Sequence record: NC_105512.1
Origin: Escherichia phage JLBYU43
Length of the DNA stretch: 64,000 nt
Reading direction: 5' to 3' (one strand)
Shown here: positions 29,000-38,478 of the stretch, in pieces
Position numbering within the stretch: the first letter of the stretch is position 1
How the letters are laid out: every line of letters starts with the position of its first letter
Made by a program: the position numbers and the translations under genes
Notes under the pieces: generated by a model
Told to the model about the DNA's origin: nothing
The model's database searches: none
Seen by the model: only the letters and a program-made list of their open reading frames with translations

Positions 29000-29221
29000 T
29001 CAGCCATCTTCGGATTCTAGTTGCTCGGCTACTGCTAGCCAGTCTGGTAAAAGAAACTTAGTACGAAACTCTTCATAAGGTTCTTCTGGATAAAAGCTAA
29101 AATTTGCTTTCTCATCATTTAATAAAACCGAACCGTCTTCCTGTTCATAAGCTCGGTATGTTTCACCAATAATTAAAACTCGTCTATTAGGATTTTTATT
29201 ACGAAACTCAAAAACGTCCAT
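29000..29221 (-). CDS. hypothetical protein
   Basis: 73-aa ORF. Confidence 0.45.
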   Translation of the reverse strand: MDVFEFRNKNPNRRVLIIGETYRAYEQEDGSVLLNDEKANFSFYPEEPYEEFRTKFLLPDWLAVAEQLESEDG

Positions 29222-29236
29222 AACGTTTCCTTAAAT

Positions 29237-29311
29237 TGGTGCGGGATACGAGAGTCGAACTCGTGTCTACTGGTTGGAAGCCAGTTATTCTAGCCACTGA
29301 ACTAATCACGC
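29237..29311 (-). tRNA. tRNA-Gly (UCC)
   Basis: T-arm ACGAG-TTCGACT-CTCGT, CCA encoded, loop CTTCCAA. Confidence 0.6.
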
Positions 29312-29318
29312 ATTCGTT

Positions 29319-29394
29319 TGGCTGGAGAAGGAGGAATCGAACCTACCATTAACGGAGTCAAAGGCCGCTGTGCTAACCGTTACACTACTCTCCA
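29319..29394 (-). tRNA. tRNA-Gln (UUG)
   Basis: U1-A72 acceptor with discriminator G as in Gln tRNAs; loop CTTTGAC. Confidence 0.55.
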
Positions 29395-29400
29395 ATTGTT

Positions 29401-29476
29401 TGGCTGGAGTGCCTGGGATCGAACCAGGAACCTTCGGAGTCAGAGGCCGACGATCTGCCAATTGATCTACACTCCA
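29401..29476 (-). tRNA. tRNA-Gln (CUG)
   Basis: perfect acceptor TGGAGTG/CACTCCA, discriminator G, loop CTCTGAC. Confidence 0.55.
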
Positions 29477-29484
29477 ATAATTCT

Positions 29485-29685
29485 TCACTCTACAGGAACC
29501 GTGGCTATTGGTTCTGGTTCTTCTAGACGTTTGCCTTCATGATCTACACGAATAACACCACAACCTTCACAGATTACAACAGCACCGTAGCCTTCTTTAA
29601 CTTCGGCTTCTGTAATCAGACCAGAAAGATCACCAGTATCTCTACCCCACATATCAATGGAGCATTGTTTGCAGAAATCAGCCAT
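29485..29685 (-). CDS. small zinc-ribbon protein
   Basis: 66 aa with CxxC...CxxC. Confidence 0.45.
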   Translation of the reverse strand: MADFCKQCSIDMWGRDTGDLSGLITEAEVKEGYGAVVICEGCGVIRVDHEGKRLEEPEPIATVPVE

Positions 29686-29710
29686 ATTTTATTTCCTATT
29701 TAAGTTAACT

Positions 29711-29787
29711 TGGGGTGGCTAGTGGAATTCGAATCCACATAGGCCTGATTCACAATCAGGATCATTAACCAATTATGATATAGCCAC
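29711..29787 (-). tRNA. tRNA-His (GUG)
   Basis: extra 5' G (G-1), discriminator C, loop TTGTGAA, CCA encoded. Confidence 0.7.
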
Positions 29788-30255
29788 AATTGAAAACTCG
29801 CAGTGTTAGCGAAACCATCCTCAAATAGCATTTTCTAGAATACTAATCAAGTTATCTCCTATTGCACGCAGCTCAAGACGAGTACGAATTTTCAATTGTG
29901 GCGGCTCTCCGAAACTCATCACACTAACAACTAGTTGATTACACCTGGATTCTCGCCCAGGAAATTCTCTAGAAAGGCGCACCGTTACACTTTGAGCCAT
30001 TGAATGGGATGGTCTCTCATCCCTACTAACTACTTGATCCTTACGATCCGTCGGTTAGCACGAGCAGCGACCCTTCATATATTGTATAGTGCTCAGAAGG
30101 TCATTAGAAGCACTTATCAAGAAGCAGAAGGACTTGAACCTTCACGAGATAGACCATTTATCTCAGCCTCGTTTTCGGGTATCTTATGAGGAGTGGATGT
30201 TCCCCTTACGCCCTTTAGGAAGCCCCGTCTACCGATTCCGGCATACTTCAAGATT

Positions 30256-30350
30256 TGGAGGTAGGTAAGGGGATCGAACCCTTACACCGTATCACTACGA
30301 TCAACCGATTTCAAGTCGGAGTCCAGCGCCAGCCATTGGATTGACCTACC
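30256..30350 (-). tRNA. tRNA-Ser (UGA), long variable arm
   Basis: perfect acceptor GGTAGGT/ACCTACC, CCA encoded, loop CTTGAAA, 95 nt. Confidence 0.55.
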
Positions 30351-30362
30351 GTATAAATTGTT

Positions 30363-30456
30363 TGGCGGAAAAGATGGGAGTTGAACCCATAAGGCGGTAT
30401 TGCTACCACTCAACCGATTTCCAATCGGGTTTAGTCACCAGTCTATTTGCTTTTCC
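30363..30456 (-). tRNA. tRNA-Ser (GGA), long variable arm
   Basis: perfect acceptor GGAAAAG/CTTTTCC, CCA encoded, loop TTGGAAA. Confidence 0.5.
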
Positions 30457-31027
30457 GTTGTTCTGTTAATACTTTTGGGCTTAATCCGGTTAGTTTAGTA
30501 TATCGTCTACGTAAAGTGGACTCTGATACTTCTAGATCTTTAGCTGCCTTAACCCACCCCATTAATAATACCTTTTCAGTTATGTCTTCTAAGGACAATT
30601 CTGGTTTTATTAACTTTCCTGTAGGTTTTGGCTTACAATTTGTACATGTTACTGATCTCTGAAGCATTAGATTTCCACATAAGGGGCAAGGTACTCTACT
30701 ATCAGACCATCCATTATCTTTATTAGTTTTCTTCTGATGTTCTATTTTTGATAAAACTTGAAGATTATCTTTAGATAGATTCAGCCTATCTCTATCCTTG
30801 TGATCTACTTCTAATTCAGGGTCAAATAGATTATATAAGTCCCCAAATACATGAGAAATAATTCGGTGTATAAGTACCGAAGTTTGCTTACCATTTATCT
30901 GTAATTTTACAGCAGGGTATCCATCAACTATATATCTTGATAAAATTTTATTAGTAAATGTAGATAACACATCCCCTGTTTCATTTACTAAATACCCTGG
31001 TGCATCTTTTATTGGTACAAACTGCAT
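30443..31027 (-). CDS. HNH homing endonuclease
   Basis: NUMOD4-like N-terminus, HNH motif EVDHKDRDRLN, Cys-rich zinc ribbon. Confidence 0.7.
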   Translation of the reverse strand: MQFVPIKDAPGYLVNETGDVLSTFTNKILSRYIVDGYPAVKLQINGKQTSVLIHRIISHVFGDLYNLFDPELEVDHKDRDRLNLSKDNLQVLSKIEHQKKTNKDNGWSDSRVPCPLCGNLMLQRSVTCTNCKPKPTGKLIKPELSLEDITEKVLLMGWVKAAKDLEVSESTLRRRYTKLTGLSPKVLTEQRKSK

Positions 31028-31043
31028 ACATTACCCTATAAGT

Positions 31044-31128
31044 TGGTGGGGCTAGGGAGACTCGAACTCCCACGCATTTAAGCTACGGAATCTAAGGCCG
31101 TATTGTCTACCAGTTCCAGCATAGCCCC
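31044..31128 (-). tRNA. tRNA-Leu (UAG), long variable arm
   Basis: perfect acceptor GGGGCTA/TAGCCCC, CCA encoded, loop CTTAGAT. Confidence 0.55.
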
Positions 31129-31133
31129 AAATT

Positions 31134-31207
31134 TGGTGGAGAAAGAGGGAGTTGAACCCTCGTCTTCTGCGTGCAAAGCAGATGTTCTACCATTAAACTA
31201 TATCCCC
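31134..31207 (-). tRNA. tRNA-Ala (UGC)
   Basis: G3-U70 wobble (Ala identity element), loop TTTGCAC, CCA encoded. Confidence 0.6.
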
Positions 31208-31467
31208 AAATTCTTTAGTTTACTAAGGCTATTAGCTCGGTGTGCGTATTACCCTCAGACATTAGCCAGTAGAGGATAACCGCTCTTCACAAACCCGATA
31301 CACTATTCAGTTGCCGCTGAATCTAGTGGACTAATCTAGAACTTCTCCCGAGTCGTAGGGATTGTGCTTTTTGGCAGCCAGTCCTAGGTCGAGCTAATAC
31401 CTTAGTGAACTTTGATGAGGATTTCTCCTCATCAATTTATATAAATATTATAACAAGAAATTAAACA

Positions 31468-31827
31468 TTAAGCAAGTACATTTTTGCAGATTTCTTGTAT
31501 TTCCTTAACGTCACTAACGAAAAGGTAATCAGAGCTTCCAGAGTGCATACTCTGCATAACCACACCACCATCCGGTGCATCTTCTTTCAAAGTAATACCT
31601 AACCAGAACTTGGCAAAACTAGGTGTTACCTCACCTTGACTTGCCTTGAACACATCGCCTTCTGTGATCTCTTGACCAGTGGAGAGTCCCATGTATGGTA
31701 CGTTCAGATCAATATCTTTGTAGAACTCAGCTAGATCTTGCTCGAAATCCCAACCTTTAGAGATAGCGAACTCCATTGTTACATGACCGAAATAGCCTTG
31801 AACCTTGCTTGATAATTGCATTTGCAA
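31468..31827 (-). CDS. hypothetical protein
   Basis: 119-aa ORF. Confidence 0.5.
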   Translation of the reverse strand: MQMQLSSKVQGYFGHVTMEFAISKGWDFEQDLAEFYKDIDLNVPYMGLSTGQEITEGDVFKASQGEVTPSFAKFWLGITLKEDAPDGGVVMQSMHSGSSDYLFVSDVKEIQEICKNVLA

Positions 31828-31846
31828 TTCCTTATTTTGAGTTAAT

Positions 31847-31920
31847 TGGTACTCGGTGATAGAATCGAACTATCGCAACCGCCGTGTAAAGACGGGGTTC
31901 TCCCATTAAACTAACCGAGC
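31847..31920 (-). tRNA. tRNA-Val (UAC)
   Basis: T-arm GATAG-TTCGATT-CTATC, loop TTTACAC, CCA encoded. Confidence 0.55.
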
Positions 31921-31924
31921 AATT

Positions 31925-32002
31925 TGGTGGATTGCCTGGGATTCGAACCCAGAACTGACGGATTAAAGGTCCGCTACTCTTATCCAGTTGAGCTAGCAAT
32001 CC
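31925..32002 (-). tRNA. tRNA-Lys (UUU)
   Basis: perfect acceptor GGATTGC/GCAATCC, loop CCTTTAA (C at position 33), CCA encoded. Confidence 0.5.
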
Positions 32003-32466
32003 AATTTTTCTACTAATAATTTAAAAGCATCTAGTACAGGTACTTCAAACCATTCTCCAGATACTATATAATCTTTAAGAAGATTATGTAATTCTTTCTC
32101 TGTACGTCTTTTATCCGACGAAAATCTGAAATGGTATAGCTTGTAGTCTCTATTAGGTGAATAAGTTTGATAACTTGCTAACCTCTCATTCACATCTATA
32201 GTCATACCTATTTTATACATGCCTGGCCATGCTGGATTACCAATTACATATACAAAACCTTCCGTTATAGGTATTTTATGCTCCCTTTTATACTTTAAGA
32301 GATTTAAGGCTGCCATTCGATAACAGAATCTAAACTCTGAAGTTTTTAACTTACCTTCTTTACCTGAAATTTCGTTATATTTGCTCATATAAGCTCTTAT
32401 GAGCTTATCATCTATAATGAAGTTATCAGGAAGGTTTAAGGCAGATAAAACTTTATTAATTAGCAT
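31993..32466 (-). CDS. T5orf172-domain protein (GIY-YIG-like)
   Basis: motif VYVIGNPAWPGMYKIGMT...ERL...YQTYSP. Confidence 0.55.
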   Translation of the reverse strand: MLINKVLSALNLPDNFIIDDKLIRAYMSKYNEISGKEGKLKTSEFRFCYRMAALNLLKYKREHKIPITEGFVYVIGNPAWPGMYKIGMTIDVNERLASYQTYSPNRDYKLYHFRFSSDKRRTEKELHNLLKDYIVSGEWFEVPVLDAFKLLVEKLDC

Positions 32467-32803: not shown

Positions 32804-33119
32804 AATATTCTTTGTTAACTCACTTTATAAGATATATTATACAGAGAATTAAGTGAAATAGCAAATGAATTTTTAATAAATTTACTTATTGCGTAGGCCA
32901 CCTGGAGGGTTCAAGCCCCACGGCTGACAAAGAAGTTTGCGAGACTTCTCTTAAATGCCAGAATAGACCCGCCGATCTATCGGAACCTACATAATAAGTA
33001 AACTTTCGTTTACCTACACCTACCTGGTCGGGAGGATTTTCAGCGACTAGAACCGGCCGGAAACTCATCGCCTTGTTTACCCTGTAGTCCCACTATAAGT
33101 GACGCGACCTACAAAGATT

Positions 33120-33193: not shown

Positions 33194-33406
33194 ATAATGA
33201 GTCAATCTAGGTAGGACTTGAACCTACTATCACTTGTGCGGATTTACGAGAACCATTCTTTCACTCGAATCGAACGAGCTTCTACCCTCGGCAAGCTGGT
33301 GTCCCCTCTCCACCACGCTAGAATGATAATTAATGCCTGCTCCTTTGAATCAAGAAGTCCACCCCGGACTTTGGGTCTTTGCAGTACATCACGCTGCTCT
33401 GATGTT

Positions 33407-33489: not shown

Positions 33490-33542
33490 TGGCGGTACTA
33501 AGGGTAATCGAAACCCTACCTCTCCCGTGACAGGGGAGTACC
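33490..33542 (-). tRNA. compact tRNA-like element without D-arm (anticodon loop GUC, Asp-like)
   Basis: 53 nt: acceptor-like stem, hairpin CTCCC-CTGTCAC-GGGAG, T-arm AGGGT-TTCGATT-ACCCT, CCA encoded; no room for a D-arm. Confidence 0.3.
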
Positions 33543-33574
33543 ATTACCAAGCCAGCCCCGATCGCATAATTTAT

Positions 33575-37393: not shown

Positions 37394-37995
37394 TTTAGGT
37401 ATTTTTAAGAACTCTCGTAAAAGTCCTTAAAGATACCCAACGGTAGGTAGGGTCAGCCCCCTCAGATTAAGCTCTGCAGCCCTTCCGTCAGACAATATCT
37501 TCCAGTTTAAGTCAAGGTGACTTTGTGGTTATGTTCTCCGTATGTGAAGAACTCGGTTAGGCTTAGGTCATGACTCCCAGCCTACTGCTGCCGCTCAACA
37601 GGAATTATCGCGAATTACCTGTACTATTGGGCACCATTAGTGACATCTCTCATGTCAGCATTTCCCACTTTGTGGATAGCTTGAAAAACTACTCCGATAT
37701 GGAGAAAGAACTTCACTATCCTAGAAATACCTTCTAAAGTTCTTCTTTAGCCTGGACATAGTTAAATCGTAATAAAACTATTCAGCAGACTAGTTGGTTA
37801 GCCTGGAACCAACTACCGCGTGGTTTAGGCAGTGCGTAACTAACCTAGGAAGCTTTTACGTTAAAAGCATCAGTTATCCAGTTCTTACCGACCGTAGGAT
37901 TCGAACCTACATCTTCCACCAGTTACGGCTTGATAATACCAATTATACTAGGACGGCAGTGTTACTACATAAGTGATTTCCACACACCACTATTA

Positions 37996-38478
37996 CTAAC
38001 CAAAGTTAGTAAATTCTTTATGTAAGGATTCTCTTAATATCTTAGAGGCCTCGAAAGCCTCTTCCGCAGTTTTAAACCCTCTTTTACTGTAATTTTTTCC
38101 TTCATGTCTTACTTGGTATCTCCAGGAAGAGCCTTCCCAACTTACTCCTTTGTACCCAGAAGTATTATTGCATTGTTGGTTTCTATTCGCATTGTTTTGC
38201 GATCTAGAGGCGTCCCTTAGATTATTTTTCCTATTATTTCTAGGATTAGTATCCTTATGATCTACTTCTTCAGGCCTATATCCATAGTACATAATAAACA
38301 ATAAGACATGCAGTTGATAGGTGTCGCCCTGAAATCCCACATCTGGGTGTGATTTCTTATTATTGGCACAACACTCTTTCAAACCTTTCTTTGTTTTCCT
38401 ATATAGTACCCCATTATCAGGATCAGCTACAAAATATTTTTCAAGTATTTCTTTAGTAGGGTATTCTTTCCTTTTCAT
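37996..38478 (-). CDS. HNH endonuclease with AP2-like domain
   Basis: HNH motif (EVDHKDTNPRNN) plus C-terminal YKGVSWEGSSWRYQV. Confidence 0.65.
   Translation of the reverse strand: MKRKEYPTKEILEKYFVADPDNGVLYRKTKKGLKECCANNKKSHPDVGFQGDTYQLHVLLFIMYYGYRPEEVDHKDTNPRNNRKNNLRDASRSQNNANRNQQCNNTSGYKGVSWEGSSWRYQVRHEGKNYSKRGFKTAEEAFEASKILRESLHKEFTNFG

What the first reader, a model, noticed from the sequence alone, without database searches (positions are those of the whole stretch)
29788..30255. ~470-nt non-coding spacer containing a CCA-less T-arm fragment
No ORF of plausible size and no complete tRNA is present. There is a perfect T-arm-like hairpin (GAAGG-TTCAAGT-CCTTC at ~30127-30143) with no complementary acceptor strand and no CCA, plus a GGGATG-GTCTCTC-ATCCC hairpin. 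The region may encode a stable structured RNA or a decayed tRNA. Small stable RNAs of unknown function have been reported in the T5 tRNA region in older literature (my recollection).
Basis: partly seen in the sequence, partly recalled or inferred. Interest (0 to 1): 0.5.

Follow-up and report, generated by a model that had tools for sequence, protein, structure and literature searches.

The report
Four tandem small-RNA genes in tRNA cluster
The "spacer" in this T5-like phage's tRNA cluster holds four back-to-back structured RNA genes: three match the long-known but still unexplained stable RNAs of phage T5, and the fourth is an unannotated double-pseudoknot RNA also present in the tRNA clusters of several unrelated large phages.

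Summary
The window is a T5-like phage (Demerecviridae) with its tRNA genes on the minus strand. The stretch 29788-30255 lies between tRNA-His and a tRNA-Ser(UGA) that ARAGORN missed. It is non-coding but not empty.

The T5 reference record annotates the homologous stretch as three "stable RNAs with unknown functions". All three are present here:
- **RNA1** (about 30115-30252) is tRNA-like.
- **RNAI** is at 29899-29998.
- **RNAIII** is at 29789-29894.

RNA1 does have an acceptor stem. It is a complete tRNA-Leu-like cloverleaf whose anticodon loop is replaced by a 48-nt structured arm. Covariation supports this fold: 93% of cells are paired against 36-53% in shifted controls.

T5 lacks X, and X matches no Rfam family. 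It folds into two pseudoknots plus hairpins with very strong covariation. It occurs only in phage tRNA arrays: T5-like phages, a FelixO1-like phage, Justusliebigvirus and the jumbo phage CBB.

The 59-aa ORF annotated in relatives is not conserved. Function is unknown for all four RNAs, and the three T5 RNAs are dispensable in the laboratory.

Verdict: a real feature, mostly already known, plus one new RNA family.

The parts
30115..30252 (-). Homolog of T5 RNA1, annotated in T5 as a 'tRNA-like stable RNA'. The tRNA-like core runs 30249..30121. It is a class II, tRNA-Leu-like cloverleaf with no encoded CCA.
   Evidence: It is 81% identical to T5 rna1. On 26 distinct homologs, 93.4% of cells are paired against 36-53% in slid controls, and 13 pairs change on both sides against 1-3. 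ARAGORN in intron mode calls it a tRNA with a 41-nt intron.
30127..30143 (-). T-arm of RNA1 (GAAGG UUCAAGU CCUUC).
   Evidence: Read from the sequence. It is 100% paired in 26 homologs, with one AU-to-GC compensatory change.
30171..30218 (-). 48-nt structured insertion that replaces the anticodon loop of RNA1. It contains helix GGG(C)/(A)CCC and a hairpin GGGGA-ACAUCCAC-UCCUC whose 8-nt loop is nearly invariant.
   Evidence: These are alignment A1 columns 36-83. The flanking anticodon stem 31-35/84-88 is 100% paired with two covarying pairs. The hairpin 48-53/62-67 has three pairs that change on both sides.
30006..30114 (-). Unit X, a 109-nt double-pseudoknot RNA that T5 lacks. Elements:
- P1: 30114-30109 with 30093-30088.
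- PK-A: 30100-30096 with 30076-30072.
- S1: 30063-30061 with 30053-30051.
- S2: 30059-30054 with 30030-30025.
- P2b: 30048-30045 with 30039-30036, loop GUAAG.
- Invariant AAGUA: 30035-30031.
- P3: 30023-30018 with 30011-30006.
   Evidence: There is no homolog in T5 24-42 kb and no Rfam match. BLAST finds it in 74 phage records. On 17 sequences, 93.6% of cells are paired against 28-39% slid, 19 of 25 pairs change on both sides, and the covariation score is 0.81 against at most 0.09. PK-A is paired in 80/80 cells against 25-47/80 in shifted registers.
30006..30023 (-). P3 hairpin of unit X (GGGAUG AGAGAC CAUCCC).
   Evidence: Compensatory variants are GCCCUG/CAGGGC, GGGCUG/CAGCCC, GGGUUG/CAACCC and GUACUG/CAGUAC. 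97% of cells are paired.
29899..29998 (-). Homolog of T5 RNAI. It has a terminal stem GGCUC/GAGCC followed by an encoded GCCA 3' end. The central domain is of a different type from T5's.
   Evidence: The 5' 20 nt and 3' 22 nt match T5 rnaI. The terminal-stem pair covaries (UA to CG, GGCCC/GGGCC in Klebsiella phages), and the inner hairpin covaries at two pairs.
29789..29894 (-). Homolog of T5 RNAIII. It has a 12-bp terminal stem and abuts the 5' end of tRNA-His.
   Evidence: It is 97% identical to T5 rnaIII. The sense strand folds at -28.9 kcal/mol (z = -2.69) against -13.4 kcal/mol (z = +0.15) for the antisense strand. It is too conserved for covariation to be assessed.
29821..30000 (-). 59-aa ORF that overlaps RNAI and RNAIII and is annotated 'hypothetical protein' in some relatives. 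I judge it not to be a gene.
   Evidence: It is intact in only 5 of 30 distinct relatives. In the T5-type majority it stops after 22 codons.

Best explanation
The stretch is a row of four small non-coding RNA genes on the tRNA strand, in the order RNA1 (tRNA-like), X, RNAI, RNAIII.

**Shown here:**
- RNA1, RNAI and RNAIII are homologs of RNAs that the T5 record annotates as stable.
- RNA1, X and RNAI carry base-pair covariation.
- G-U pairs place the structures on the tRNA strand.

**Inferred for processing:**
- The four RNAs are transcribed together with the flanking tRNAs as one precursor.
- The tRNA-processing machinery cuts them out. RNase P would cut at the 5' ends of tRNA-His, of RNAI (acceptor-like stem plus GCCA) and of RNA1 (cloverleaf). 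tRNA 3'-end nucleases would complete the release.
- Each RNA survives because its two ends are locked in a terminal helix or hairpin.

**What each RNA is:**
- RNA1 derives from a tRNA-Leu gene. It keeps the acceptor, D, anticodon-stem, long variable and T arms. A rigid 48-nt arm ending in the loop ACAUCCAC sits where the anticodon should be. It has no CCA and a U at the discriminator position. It therefore cannot decode, and probably cannot be charged.
- X is a compact fold of two H-type pseudoknots plus hairpins. It moves between phage tRNA arrays as a self-contained module.

**Most likely role (inferred, not shown; about 0.3 on its own):** these are non-essential accessory RNAs that bind or titrate a host or phage factor that handles tRNA, for example as decoys for a tRNA-directed enzyme or defence nuclease. 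They do not act in translation.
For: **Identity:**
- The T5 record annotates the syntenic stretch as stable RNAs rnaIII, rnaI and rna1.
- Their window homologs score 97% (RNAIII), conserved ends only (RNAI) and 81% (RNA1).
- The region is present in about 500 T5-like phage records.

**RNA1 fold:**
- 93.4% of cells are paired against 36-53% in slid controls. 13 pairs change on both sides against 1-3. The covariation score is 0.245 against at most 0.071.
- Its D-arm is closest to tRNA-Leu.
- ARAGORN -i calls RNA1 homologs intron-containing tRNAs, and calls the T5 copy Leu(UAA).

**X fold:**
- 91.7-93.6% of cells are paired against 28-40% slid, and 19 of 25 pairs covary.
- The first pseudoknot is paired in 80/80 cells, using six different 5-mer pairs. 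A seventh pair was read from phage P778.
- In every case X lies in the sense orientation inside a tRNA array, 5-11 nt upstream of a tRNA or of RNAI.
- X is found in Demerecviridae (three genera), Justusliebigvirus FKP3, the FelixO1-like phage P778 and the jumbo phage CBB.
- No genuine match was found in 185,579 bacterial and archaeal genomes.

**Other support:**
- RNAI has a covarying terminal stem and an encoded GCCA end.
- Coding is excluded.
- The T5 RNAs are dispensable. The viable T5 mutant with deletion 29191-32442 lacks RNA1, RNAI and RNAIII (PMC11464382).
Against: - No expression data exist for this phage or for X. The word 'stable' rests on the T5 annotation alone.
- Minimum-free-energy z-scores are unremarkable for RNA1 (-0.85), X (-1.18) and RNAI (0.04), so the structures rest on covariation.
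- RNA1 homologs fall into about three sequence types plus one Klebsiella copy, so the number of independent compensatory events is small.
- RNAIII shows no covariation at all.
- Nothing tested here bears on the decoy or titration function.
- In T5, cloned fragments covering this part of the deletion did not rescue PARIS sensitivity.
- The processing enzymes are inferred from the anatomy only.
Confidence: 0.85

Rival explanations
1. X is not a free-standing trans-acting RNA. It is a cis element of the tRNA precursor: a structured 5' leader that guides or protects processing, stability or transcription of the tRNA or tRNA-like RNA immediately downstream.
For: In all contexts examined, X ends 5-11 nt before the 5' end of a tRNA or of RNAI. 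The upstream distance varies from 0 to 32 nt, and sometimes no tRNA lies upstream at all. X carries no partner gene when it is gained or lost.
Against: The downstream partner changes freely: RNAI, Trp, Ile, Gln, Gly, Asp, Thr. Spacers of 5-11 nt are simply the normal packing in these arrays. Most tRNAs in the same arrays, and most T5-like phages, do without X (74 of about 510 records). An elaborate double pseudoknot with invariant loop residues is more than a leader needs.
Confidence: 0.2
2. X is a small self-cleaving ribozyme that helps cut the tRNA precursor, for example at its own 5' edge next to the CCA of the upstream tRNA.
For: The fold is compact and pseudoknotted, with invariant unpaired residues (AAGUA, GUAA, G..GC.C). 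In several phages X starts directly after the CCA of the upstream tRNA. From my own recollection, HDV-like ribozymes next to phage tRNAs have been described.
Against: No match to any Rfam ribozyme family, even at E <= 10 with permissive filters. The helix order does not fit the HDV-like or pistol topologies (inspection only). The distance to the upstream tRNA is not constant, and several copies have no upstream tRNA.
Confidence: 0.07
3. The stretch is a decaying tRNA pseudogene plus neutral spacer, conserved only because these phages are close relatives.
For: There is no anticodon loop, no CCA, and no hit to tRNA models. MFE z-scores are weak. The region can be deleted.
Against: Compensatory double changes keep every helix intact, including helices inside the inserted arm of RNA1 and in X, across phages that differ by 20-30% and across unrelated phage families. 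T5 annotates stable transcripts here.
Confidence: 0.03
4. The stretch encodes one or more small proteins: the 59-aa ORF at 29821-30000(-), or the antisense ORFs 30004-30189(+) and 30089-30268(+).
For: The ORFs exist, and several GenBank records annotate them as hypothetical proteins.
Against: The 59-aa ORF is intact in 5 of 30 distinct relatives and is cut to 22 codons in the majority. The antisense frames carry stop codons in half or more of the relatives. Substitutions in the RNAIII part are mostly non-synonymous in that frame (read). No convincing ribosome-binding site is present.
Confidence: 0.03
5. The conservation reflects a DNA-level element, such as a homing-endonuclease target, a recombination site or a promoter, rather than an RNA.
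For: HNH homing endonuclease genes are scattered through this tRNA region. The units are gained and lost as clean blocks.
Against: Many conserved pairs are G-U on the tRNA strand and would be A-C mismatches on the other strand. Stems vary in sequence while keeping complementarity, which a DNA recognition site would not do. Promoter-like matches occur at the chance rate (7 found, 7.4 expected).
Confidence: 0.03

Closest known systems
Bacteriophage T5 stable RNAs RNA1, RNAI and RNAIII (misc_RNA rna1, rnaI, rnaIII in NC_005859/AY543070)
   Same: Same position (between tRNA-His and the tRNA-Ser pair), same strand and same order. Sequence homology is 81% for RNA1, conserved ends for RNAI and 97% for RNAIII. 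RNA1 is already described there as tRNA-like. All are annotated with unknown function.
   Different: In the window, a 109-nt unit X splits the RNA1-RNAI junction. T5 has no such unit. The central domain of the window's RNAI is a different cassette from T5's. The structure models with covariation come from this work, not from the annotation.
Bacteriophage T4 species 1 and species 2 RNAs (rnaC, rnaD)
   Same: They are small stable RNAs of 139 and 119 nt sitting at the end of a phage tRNA cluster. Their function is still unknown (PMC3014915). rnaC ends in a T-arm plus an acceptor-like strand, like RNA1.
   Different: No detectable sequence or model-level homology to RNA1, X, RNAI or RNAIII. The best weak hit of the RNA1 profile in that T4 region falls on tRNA-Leu.
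Canonical class II tRNA-Leu, and intron-containing tRNA genes
   Same: RNA1 has an acceptor stem, a 3-bp D stem with the Leu-type GGAAUYGGUAGAC loop, a 5-bp anticodon stem, a long variable arm and a GGUUCAAGUCC T-arm. If the insertion is replaced by 7 nt, ARAGORN calls it tRNA-Leu. In intron mode ARAGORN calls it a tRNA with a 40-41-nt intron.
   Different: The insertion is too short for a group I intron and has no bulge-helix-bulge shape. The residues that would form U33 and the anticodon are not conserved between phages. The acceptor stem is 6 bp with U-U mismatches. The discriminator is U and no CCA is encoded. T5 lists the full-length 144-nt species as the stable product.
Tandem pseudoknots placed next to tRNA-like domains (plant-virus upstream pseudoknot domains, tmRNA pseudoknots); from my own knowledge, not tested here
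   Same: X is a pair of H-type pseudoknots lying directly 5' of a tRNA or tRNA-like RNA.
   Different: No homology. Those elements are part of one molecule together with the tRNA-like domain, whereas X is probably separated from its neighbour by RNase P. The resemblance is one of arrangement only.

Membership tests
T5 RNA1 (tRNA-like stable RNA) | Sequence homology at the syntenic site between tRNA-His and the tRNA-Ser pair | tested here: met
   81% identity over 138 nt to T5 rna1. The same neighbours are present.
T5 RNA1 (tRNA-like stable RNA) | tRNA-like secondary structure | tested here: met
   Cloverleaf with covariation. ARAGORN in intron mode calls it.
T5 RNA1 / RNAI / RNAIII | Accumulates as a discrete stable transcript in infected cells | not testable with these tools
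   The only support is the wording of the T5 GenBank annotation.
T5 RNAI | Homology to rnaI, with a terminal stem followed by a GCCA 3' end | tested here: met
   The 5' 20 nt (100%) and 3' 22 nt (91%) match. The GGCUC/GAGCC stem covaries with GGCCC/GGGCC. The central 60 nt is a different cassette.
T5 RNAIII | Homology to rnaIII, directly abutting tRNA-His | tested here: met
   97% identity over 106 nt, ending about 1 nt before the tRNA-His gene.
Canonical tRNA | Four-arm cloverleaf with a T-loop and D-loop | tested here: met
   all arms are present and paired in 26 homologs of RNA1.
Canonical tRNA | 7-nt anticodon loop with a conserved U33 and an anticodon | tested here: not met
   A 48-nt insertion sits between the anticodon-stem strands. 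The residues flanking it differ between phage types (CUAAA / CGAAU / CCAAU).
Canonical tRNA | Recognised by general tRNA models | tested here: not met
   No RF00005 hit at E <= 10. Default ARAGORN makes no call.
Canonical tRNA | 7-bp acceptor stem and a CCA end; A73 for Leu identity in E. coli (the last point is from my own knowledge) | tested here: not met
   The acceptor is 6 bp plus U-U mismatches. The next base is U, followed by GAUA, and no CCA is encoded. Post-transcriptional CCA addition cannot be tested here.
T4 rnaC / rnaD | Sequence or profile homology | tested here: not met
   nhmmer with the four alignments gives nothing better than E = 0.27, and that hit is on T4 tRNA-Leu. Model R1 finds nothing in the T4 region.
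Any Rfam 15 family, including self-cleaving ribozymes and riboswitches | Covariance-model match | tested here: not met
   The only hits are msiK at 11.7 bits (gathering score 33, E = 5.8) and a lncRNA fragment. Nothing appeared in the wider scan.
Unit X (family defined here) | P1 hairpin whose loop pairs downstream, an S1/S2 pseudoknot enclosing a GUAAN hairpin with invariant AAGUA, and a terminal hairpin, all in the sense orientation inside a phage tRNA array | tested here: met
   The window copy scores 121.9 bits (E about 1e-30) against model R1, though it was one of the sequences used to build the model. Independent members are CBB at 84.8 bits and P778 at 94.5 bits.

The most novel reading that the evidence does not exclude
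Unit X is a previously undescribed, horizontally mobile class of double-pseudoknot RNA specific to the tRNA arrays of large virulent phages. It acts in trans as a catalytic RNA or as a high-affinity decoy for a host tRNA-directed enzyme or defence nuclease. RNA1 is a natural 'tRNA scaffold' that displays a 48-nt arm to the same kind of target. Under this reading, the 40-year-old 'stable RNAs of unknown function' of T5 would be an RNA-based anti-host toolkit.
Probability: 0.2. Interest if true: 0.8.

Novelty: new member of a known kind. Interest (0 to 1): 0.5.

Why it matters
Phages T4 and T5 have been known since the 1970s-80s to make small stable RNAs from their tRNA clusters, and none has an assigned function. 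This analysis provides testable models:
- RNA1 is a maintained tRNA-Leu body carrying a rigid arm in place of the anticodon.
- RNAI is a CCA-ended RNA with an acceptor-like stem.
- A fourth family, X, has one of the clearest covariation signals one can obtain from under 20 sequences.

X crosses phage families (T5-like, FelixO1-like, Justusliebigvirus, jumbo CBB), while a conserved-motif pattern scan found no copy in one representative genome for each of 185,579 bacterial and archaeal species. That points to a phage-specific function tied to tRNA arrays. Phage tRNAs are now known to counter tRNA-cleaving host defences, so these neighbouring non-tRNA RNAs are obvious candidates to examine in the same light.

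There is also a practical point. Annotation pipelines currently label these loci 'hypothetical protein' or leave them blank.

Tried and rejected
- **Whole-stretch folding on both strands:** z = -0.65 and -0.43, uninformative. Per-unit MFE z-scores are significant only for RNAIII.
- **Rfam:** scans of 11 kb and of the 491-nt stretch with permissive filters gave only tRNAs and noise. The weak msiK hit (11.7 bits, E = 5.8) is judged to be chance.
- **Coding:** the 59-aa ORF and the antisense ORFs are not conserved.
- **Promoter and terminator scan:** promoter-like sites occur at the chance rate. The two 'terminator-like' hits are the T-arm and a hairpin inside RNAIII.
- **Homology of X to any annotated T5 RNA** (RNA2H, RNAIV, RNA2, RNA3, RNAX): none.
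- **Homology of any unit to T4 rnaC/rnaD:** none.
- **Alternative pairing for the RNA1 anticodon region** (GCUU/GGGC local hairpin from the MFE fold): rejected in favour of the long-range stem 31-35/84-88, which has two compensatory pairs.
- **Ungapped register for PK-A in the window (GACCUU:AGGGUC):** disfavoured, because the L109 variant compensates only in the CCUUC:GAAGG register. Per-sequence shuffles of the loop are not significant on their own; the evidence is the fixed-position complementarity.
- **HDV-like and pistol ribozyme topologies for X:** the helix order does not fit (inspection only).
- **Pattern scans for more X members:** the relaxed pattern added nothing in IMG/VR. All 54 hits in bacterial and archaeal genomes were chance.
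- **Literature searches:** no recent work on the T5 stable RNAs or on tRNA-array RNAs was found in the held library. The Russian primary papers are not held.

Full report
**Setting.** The window carries 23 ARAGORN tRNA genes, all on the minus strand. By BLAST it is a T5-like phage: about 500 Demerecviridae records match the stretch. The finding, 29788-30255, lies between tRNA-His (29711-29787) and a tRNA-Ser(UGA) at 30256-30350. Default ARAGORN missed that tRNA, but Rfam scores it 37.6 bits and ARAGORN calls it at a lower threshold. All features below are on the minus strand.

**The observation.**
- The T-arm-like hairpin GAAGG-UUCAAGU-CCUUC is at 30143..30127, and the hairpin GGGAUG-AGAGAC-CAUCCC is at 30023..30006, as described.
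- No standard tRNA is called, and no CCA follows the T-arm.
- Two statements do not hold. ORFs of 59-61 aa do exist on both strands and are annotated in some relatives. There is also an acceptor strand (see RNA1 below).
- Folding energy of the whole stretch is no better than shuffled sequence.

**What is already known.** The T5 reference records annotate the syntenic interval as three tandem misc_RNAs on the tRNA strand:
- rnaIII (106 nt, abutting tRNA-His);
- rnaI (107 nt);
- rna1 (144 nt, "tRNA-like stable RNA with unknown functions").

T5 has eight such RNAs in its tRNA region. In the window, RNAIII maps to 29894..29789 (97% identity). RNAI maps to 29998..29899, with only the 5' 20 nt and 3' 22 nt conserved. 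RNA1 maps to 30252..30115 (81%). BLAST also shows that the stretch is modular, with blocks present or absent independently in different phages.

**RNA1.** I aligned 26 distinct homologs. They support a class II cloverleaf:
- acceptor GAAGUA/UGCUUC (GGAAUA/UGUUCC in T5-type phages);
- a 3-bp D stem with the tRNA-Leu-type loop;
- a 5-bp anticodon stem, alignment columns 31-35/84-88, with two compensatory pairs;
- a 7-bp variable arm;
- the T-arm.

Between the two anticodon-stem strands lie 48 nt. They form a short helix and a hairpin whose 8-nt loop ACAUCCAC is almost invariant.

Across the whole structure, 93.4% of cells are paired against 36-53% when partners are slid. Thirteen pairs change on both sides against 1-3 in the controls, and the covariation score is 0.245 against at most 0.071.

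The D-arm is closest to tRNA-Leu. With the insertion replaced by 7 nt, ARAGORN calls tRNA-Leu. In intron mode it calls every homolog tested an intron-containing tRNA, and calls the T5 copy Leu(UAA) with a 40-nt intron.

RNA1 is not a working tRNA by the usual criteria:
- no 7-nt anticodon loop;
- the would-be U33 and anticodon are not conserved;
- a 6-bp acceptor with U-U mismatches;
- U at the discriminator position;
- no encoded CCA;
- no hit to the Rfam tRNA model.

I conclude that it derives from a tRNA-Leu gene and is kept under selection as a tRNA-shaped RNA with a different business end.

**Unit X.** The window has 109-110 nt (30114..30006) between RNA1 and RNAI that T5 and most relatives lack. 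X has no homolog in T5 24-42 kb, in the rest of the window, or in Rfam.

BLAST finds X in 74 phage records:
- a subset of Epseptimavirus;
- Klebsiella Sugarlandvirus, sometimes at a different site;
- Aeromonas Shenzhenvirus;
- the Klebsiella myovirus FKP3 (Justusliebigvirus).

None of the listed records annotates an RNA there.

A pattern built from the invariant residues recovered seven further copies from metagenomes. A covariance model built from the alignment then found X in Yersinia phage P778 (FelixO1-like; 94.5 bits) and in the jumbo Pectobacterium phage CBB (84.8 bits). The same pattern gave only chance hits in IMG/VR beyond known members, and only chance hits in 185,579 bacterial and archaeal genomes.

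The structure of X is:
- P1 hairpin;
- a first pseudoknot, in which five loop bases of P1 pair with a 5-mer 2-3 nt before a conserved YGNNGC motif;
- an A/U-rich linker between P1 and that 5-mer;
- a second H-type pseudoknot (3-bp S1 and 6-bp S2) that encloses a 4-bp hairpin with a GUAAN loop and the invariant strand AAGUA;

On 17 sequences, 93.6% of cells are paired against 28-39% slid. Nineteen of 25 pairs change on both sides, and the covariation score is 0.81 against at most 0.09 (for the MAFFT alignment). The first pseudoknot is paired in 80 of 80 cells at fixed positions, against 25-47 of 80 in shifted registers. It uses six different 5-mer pairs, and a seventh pair is seen in P778. Frequent G-U pairs put the structure on the tRNA strand.

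X is always in the sense orientation within a tRNA array and ends 5-11 nt before a tRNA or RNAI. What lies upstream varies.

**RNAI and RNAIII.**
- RNAI has a terminal stem GGCUC/GAGCC followed by an encoded GCCA. The stem covaries (GGCCC/GGGCC plus ACCA in Klebsiella phages), and so does an inner hairpin. Its centre comes in two unrelated cassettes.
- RNAIII is 96-98% identical everywhere, so covariation cannot be assessed. It folds much better than shuffles on the sense strand only (z = -2.69 against +0.15).

**Coding is excluded.** The 59-aa ORF spanning RNAI and RNAIII is intact in 5 of 30 distinct relatives and stops after 22 codons in most. Antisense frames over RNA1 and X are interrupted in many relatives.

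**How it most likely works.**

Shown:
- four structured RNA genes in tandem on the tRNA strand;
- three of them homologous to RNAs recorded as stable in T5.

Inferred:
- co-transcription with the tRNAs;
- release by RNase P and tRNA 3'-end nucleases, because each unit either looks like a tRNA end or abuts one;
- stability from the terminal helices.

Function is unknown. A viable T5 deletion (29191-32442) removes RNA1, RNAI and RNAIII. Cloned fragments from that part of the deletion did not rescue PARIS sensitivity (PMC11464382). These are therefore accessory RNAs.

My best guess, at about 0.3, is that they bind or titrate factors that handle tRNA, for example as decoys for tRNA-directed host enzymes or defence nucleases. 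I also considered X as a cis leader element, X as a ribozyme, a neutral pseudogene, small proteins and a DNA-level site. These are scored separately as rival explanations.

**Comparison with known systems.** The closest relatives are the T5 RNAs themselves. T4 rnaC and rnaD are analogous (a tRNA-cluster location, unknown function, and a T-arm in rnaC) but not homologous. X matches nothing I could test.

**Verdict.** The feature is real. About three quarters of it is already known from T5. One unit is a new, well-supported RNA family within the known kind "stable RNAs of phage tRNA clusters".

Noticed in passing
window 30256-30350 (-): tRNA-Ser(UGA), with an encoded CCA, is missed by default ARAGORN. 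Rfam scores it 37.6 bits as tRNA-Sec-like, and ARAGORN -ps90 calls it. It is the homolog of T5 tRNAS1.
   Followed up: yes
window 31287-31399, 32890-32992, 33201-33325, 37394-37999 (all -): Homologs of the other T5 stable RNAs are present: RNA2H (only the first 113 of 172 nt), RNAIV, RNA2 (tRNA-like) and the 719-nt RNAX. I did not analyse their structures.
   Followed up: partly
window 37886-37957 (-) and 33493-33559 (-): Rfam's tRNA model hits 37886-37957 at 35.5 bits, above the gathering score of 29, yet ARAGORN does not call it. This hit lies inside the RNAX homolog. A weaker tRNA-like hit (25.6 bits) lies next to tRNA-Lys(CUU).
   Followed up: no
window 30443-31027 (-): A 194-aa HNH homing-endonuclease ORF, homolog of T5 hegC/F-TflI, overlaps the 5' end of the tRNA-Ser(GGA) gene (30363-30456) by 14 nt.
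   Followed up: no
L037 1720-1873 and L032 (Klebsiella Sugarlandvirus phages): In the place of RNAIII, between RNAI and tRNA-His, these phages carry an unrelated element of about 150 nt closed by a 14-bp terminal stem (UUUGAGCAUCAUCG / CGAUGGUACUCAAA). It may be another stable RNA.
   Followed up: no
L039 about 1410-1494 (Klebsiella phage FKP3): A T-arm plus acceptor strand plus CCA (GGGGTTCGACTCCTCGCTTTGCTGCCA) lies directly upstream of unit X. Neither ARAGORN nor the record calls it a tRNA.
   Followed up: no
alignment A4 (RNAI homologs; window 29899-29998): RNAI keeps a constant 5' 20 nt and 3' 22 nt, but its central ~60 nt comes in two unrelated versions: the window/Klebsiella type (100-101 nt) and the T5 type (106-107 nt). 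This looks like a frame with exchangeable inserts.
   Followed up: partly
window 30015-30068 (-): The S2/P2b part of X has a weak resemblance to the Rfam msiK motif through a shared ACGGAUCGU (11.7 bits, E = 5.8, far below the gathering score of 33). It is probably chance.
   Followed up: partly
L039 (FKP3) versus L038/L040 (KPN4, Uniso31): The 5' half of X is identical between a Klebsiella myovirus and Klebsiella T5-like siphoviruses, while the 3' half differs by compensatory changes. This suggests recent exchange of X between unrelated phages that share a host.
   Followed up: partly
L231 2419-2667 (phage CBB) and several T5-like records: Annotation pipelines place 'hypothetical protein' CDSs over or next to these RNA loci, for example KookSpook CDS0085/0086, STWB21 QTJ63351 and Sepoy_076. 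These are likely false gene calls.
   Followed up: partly
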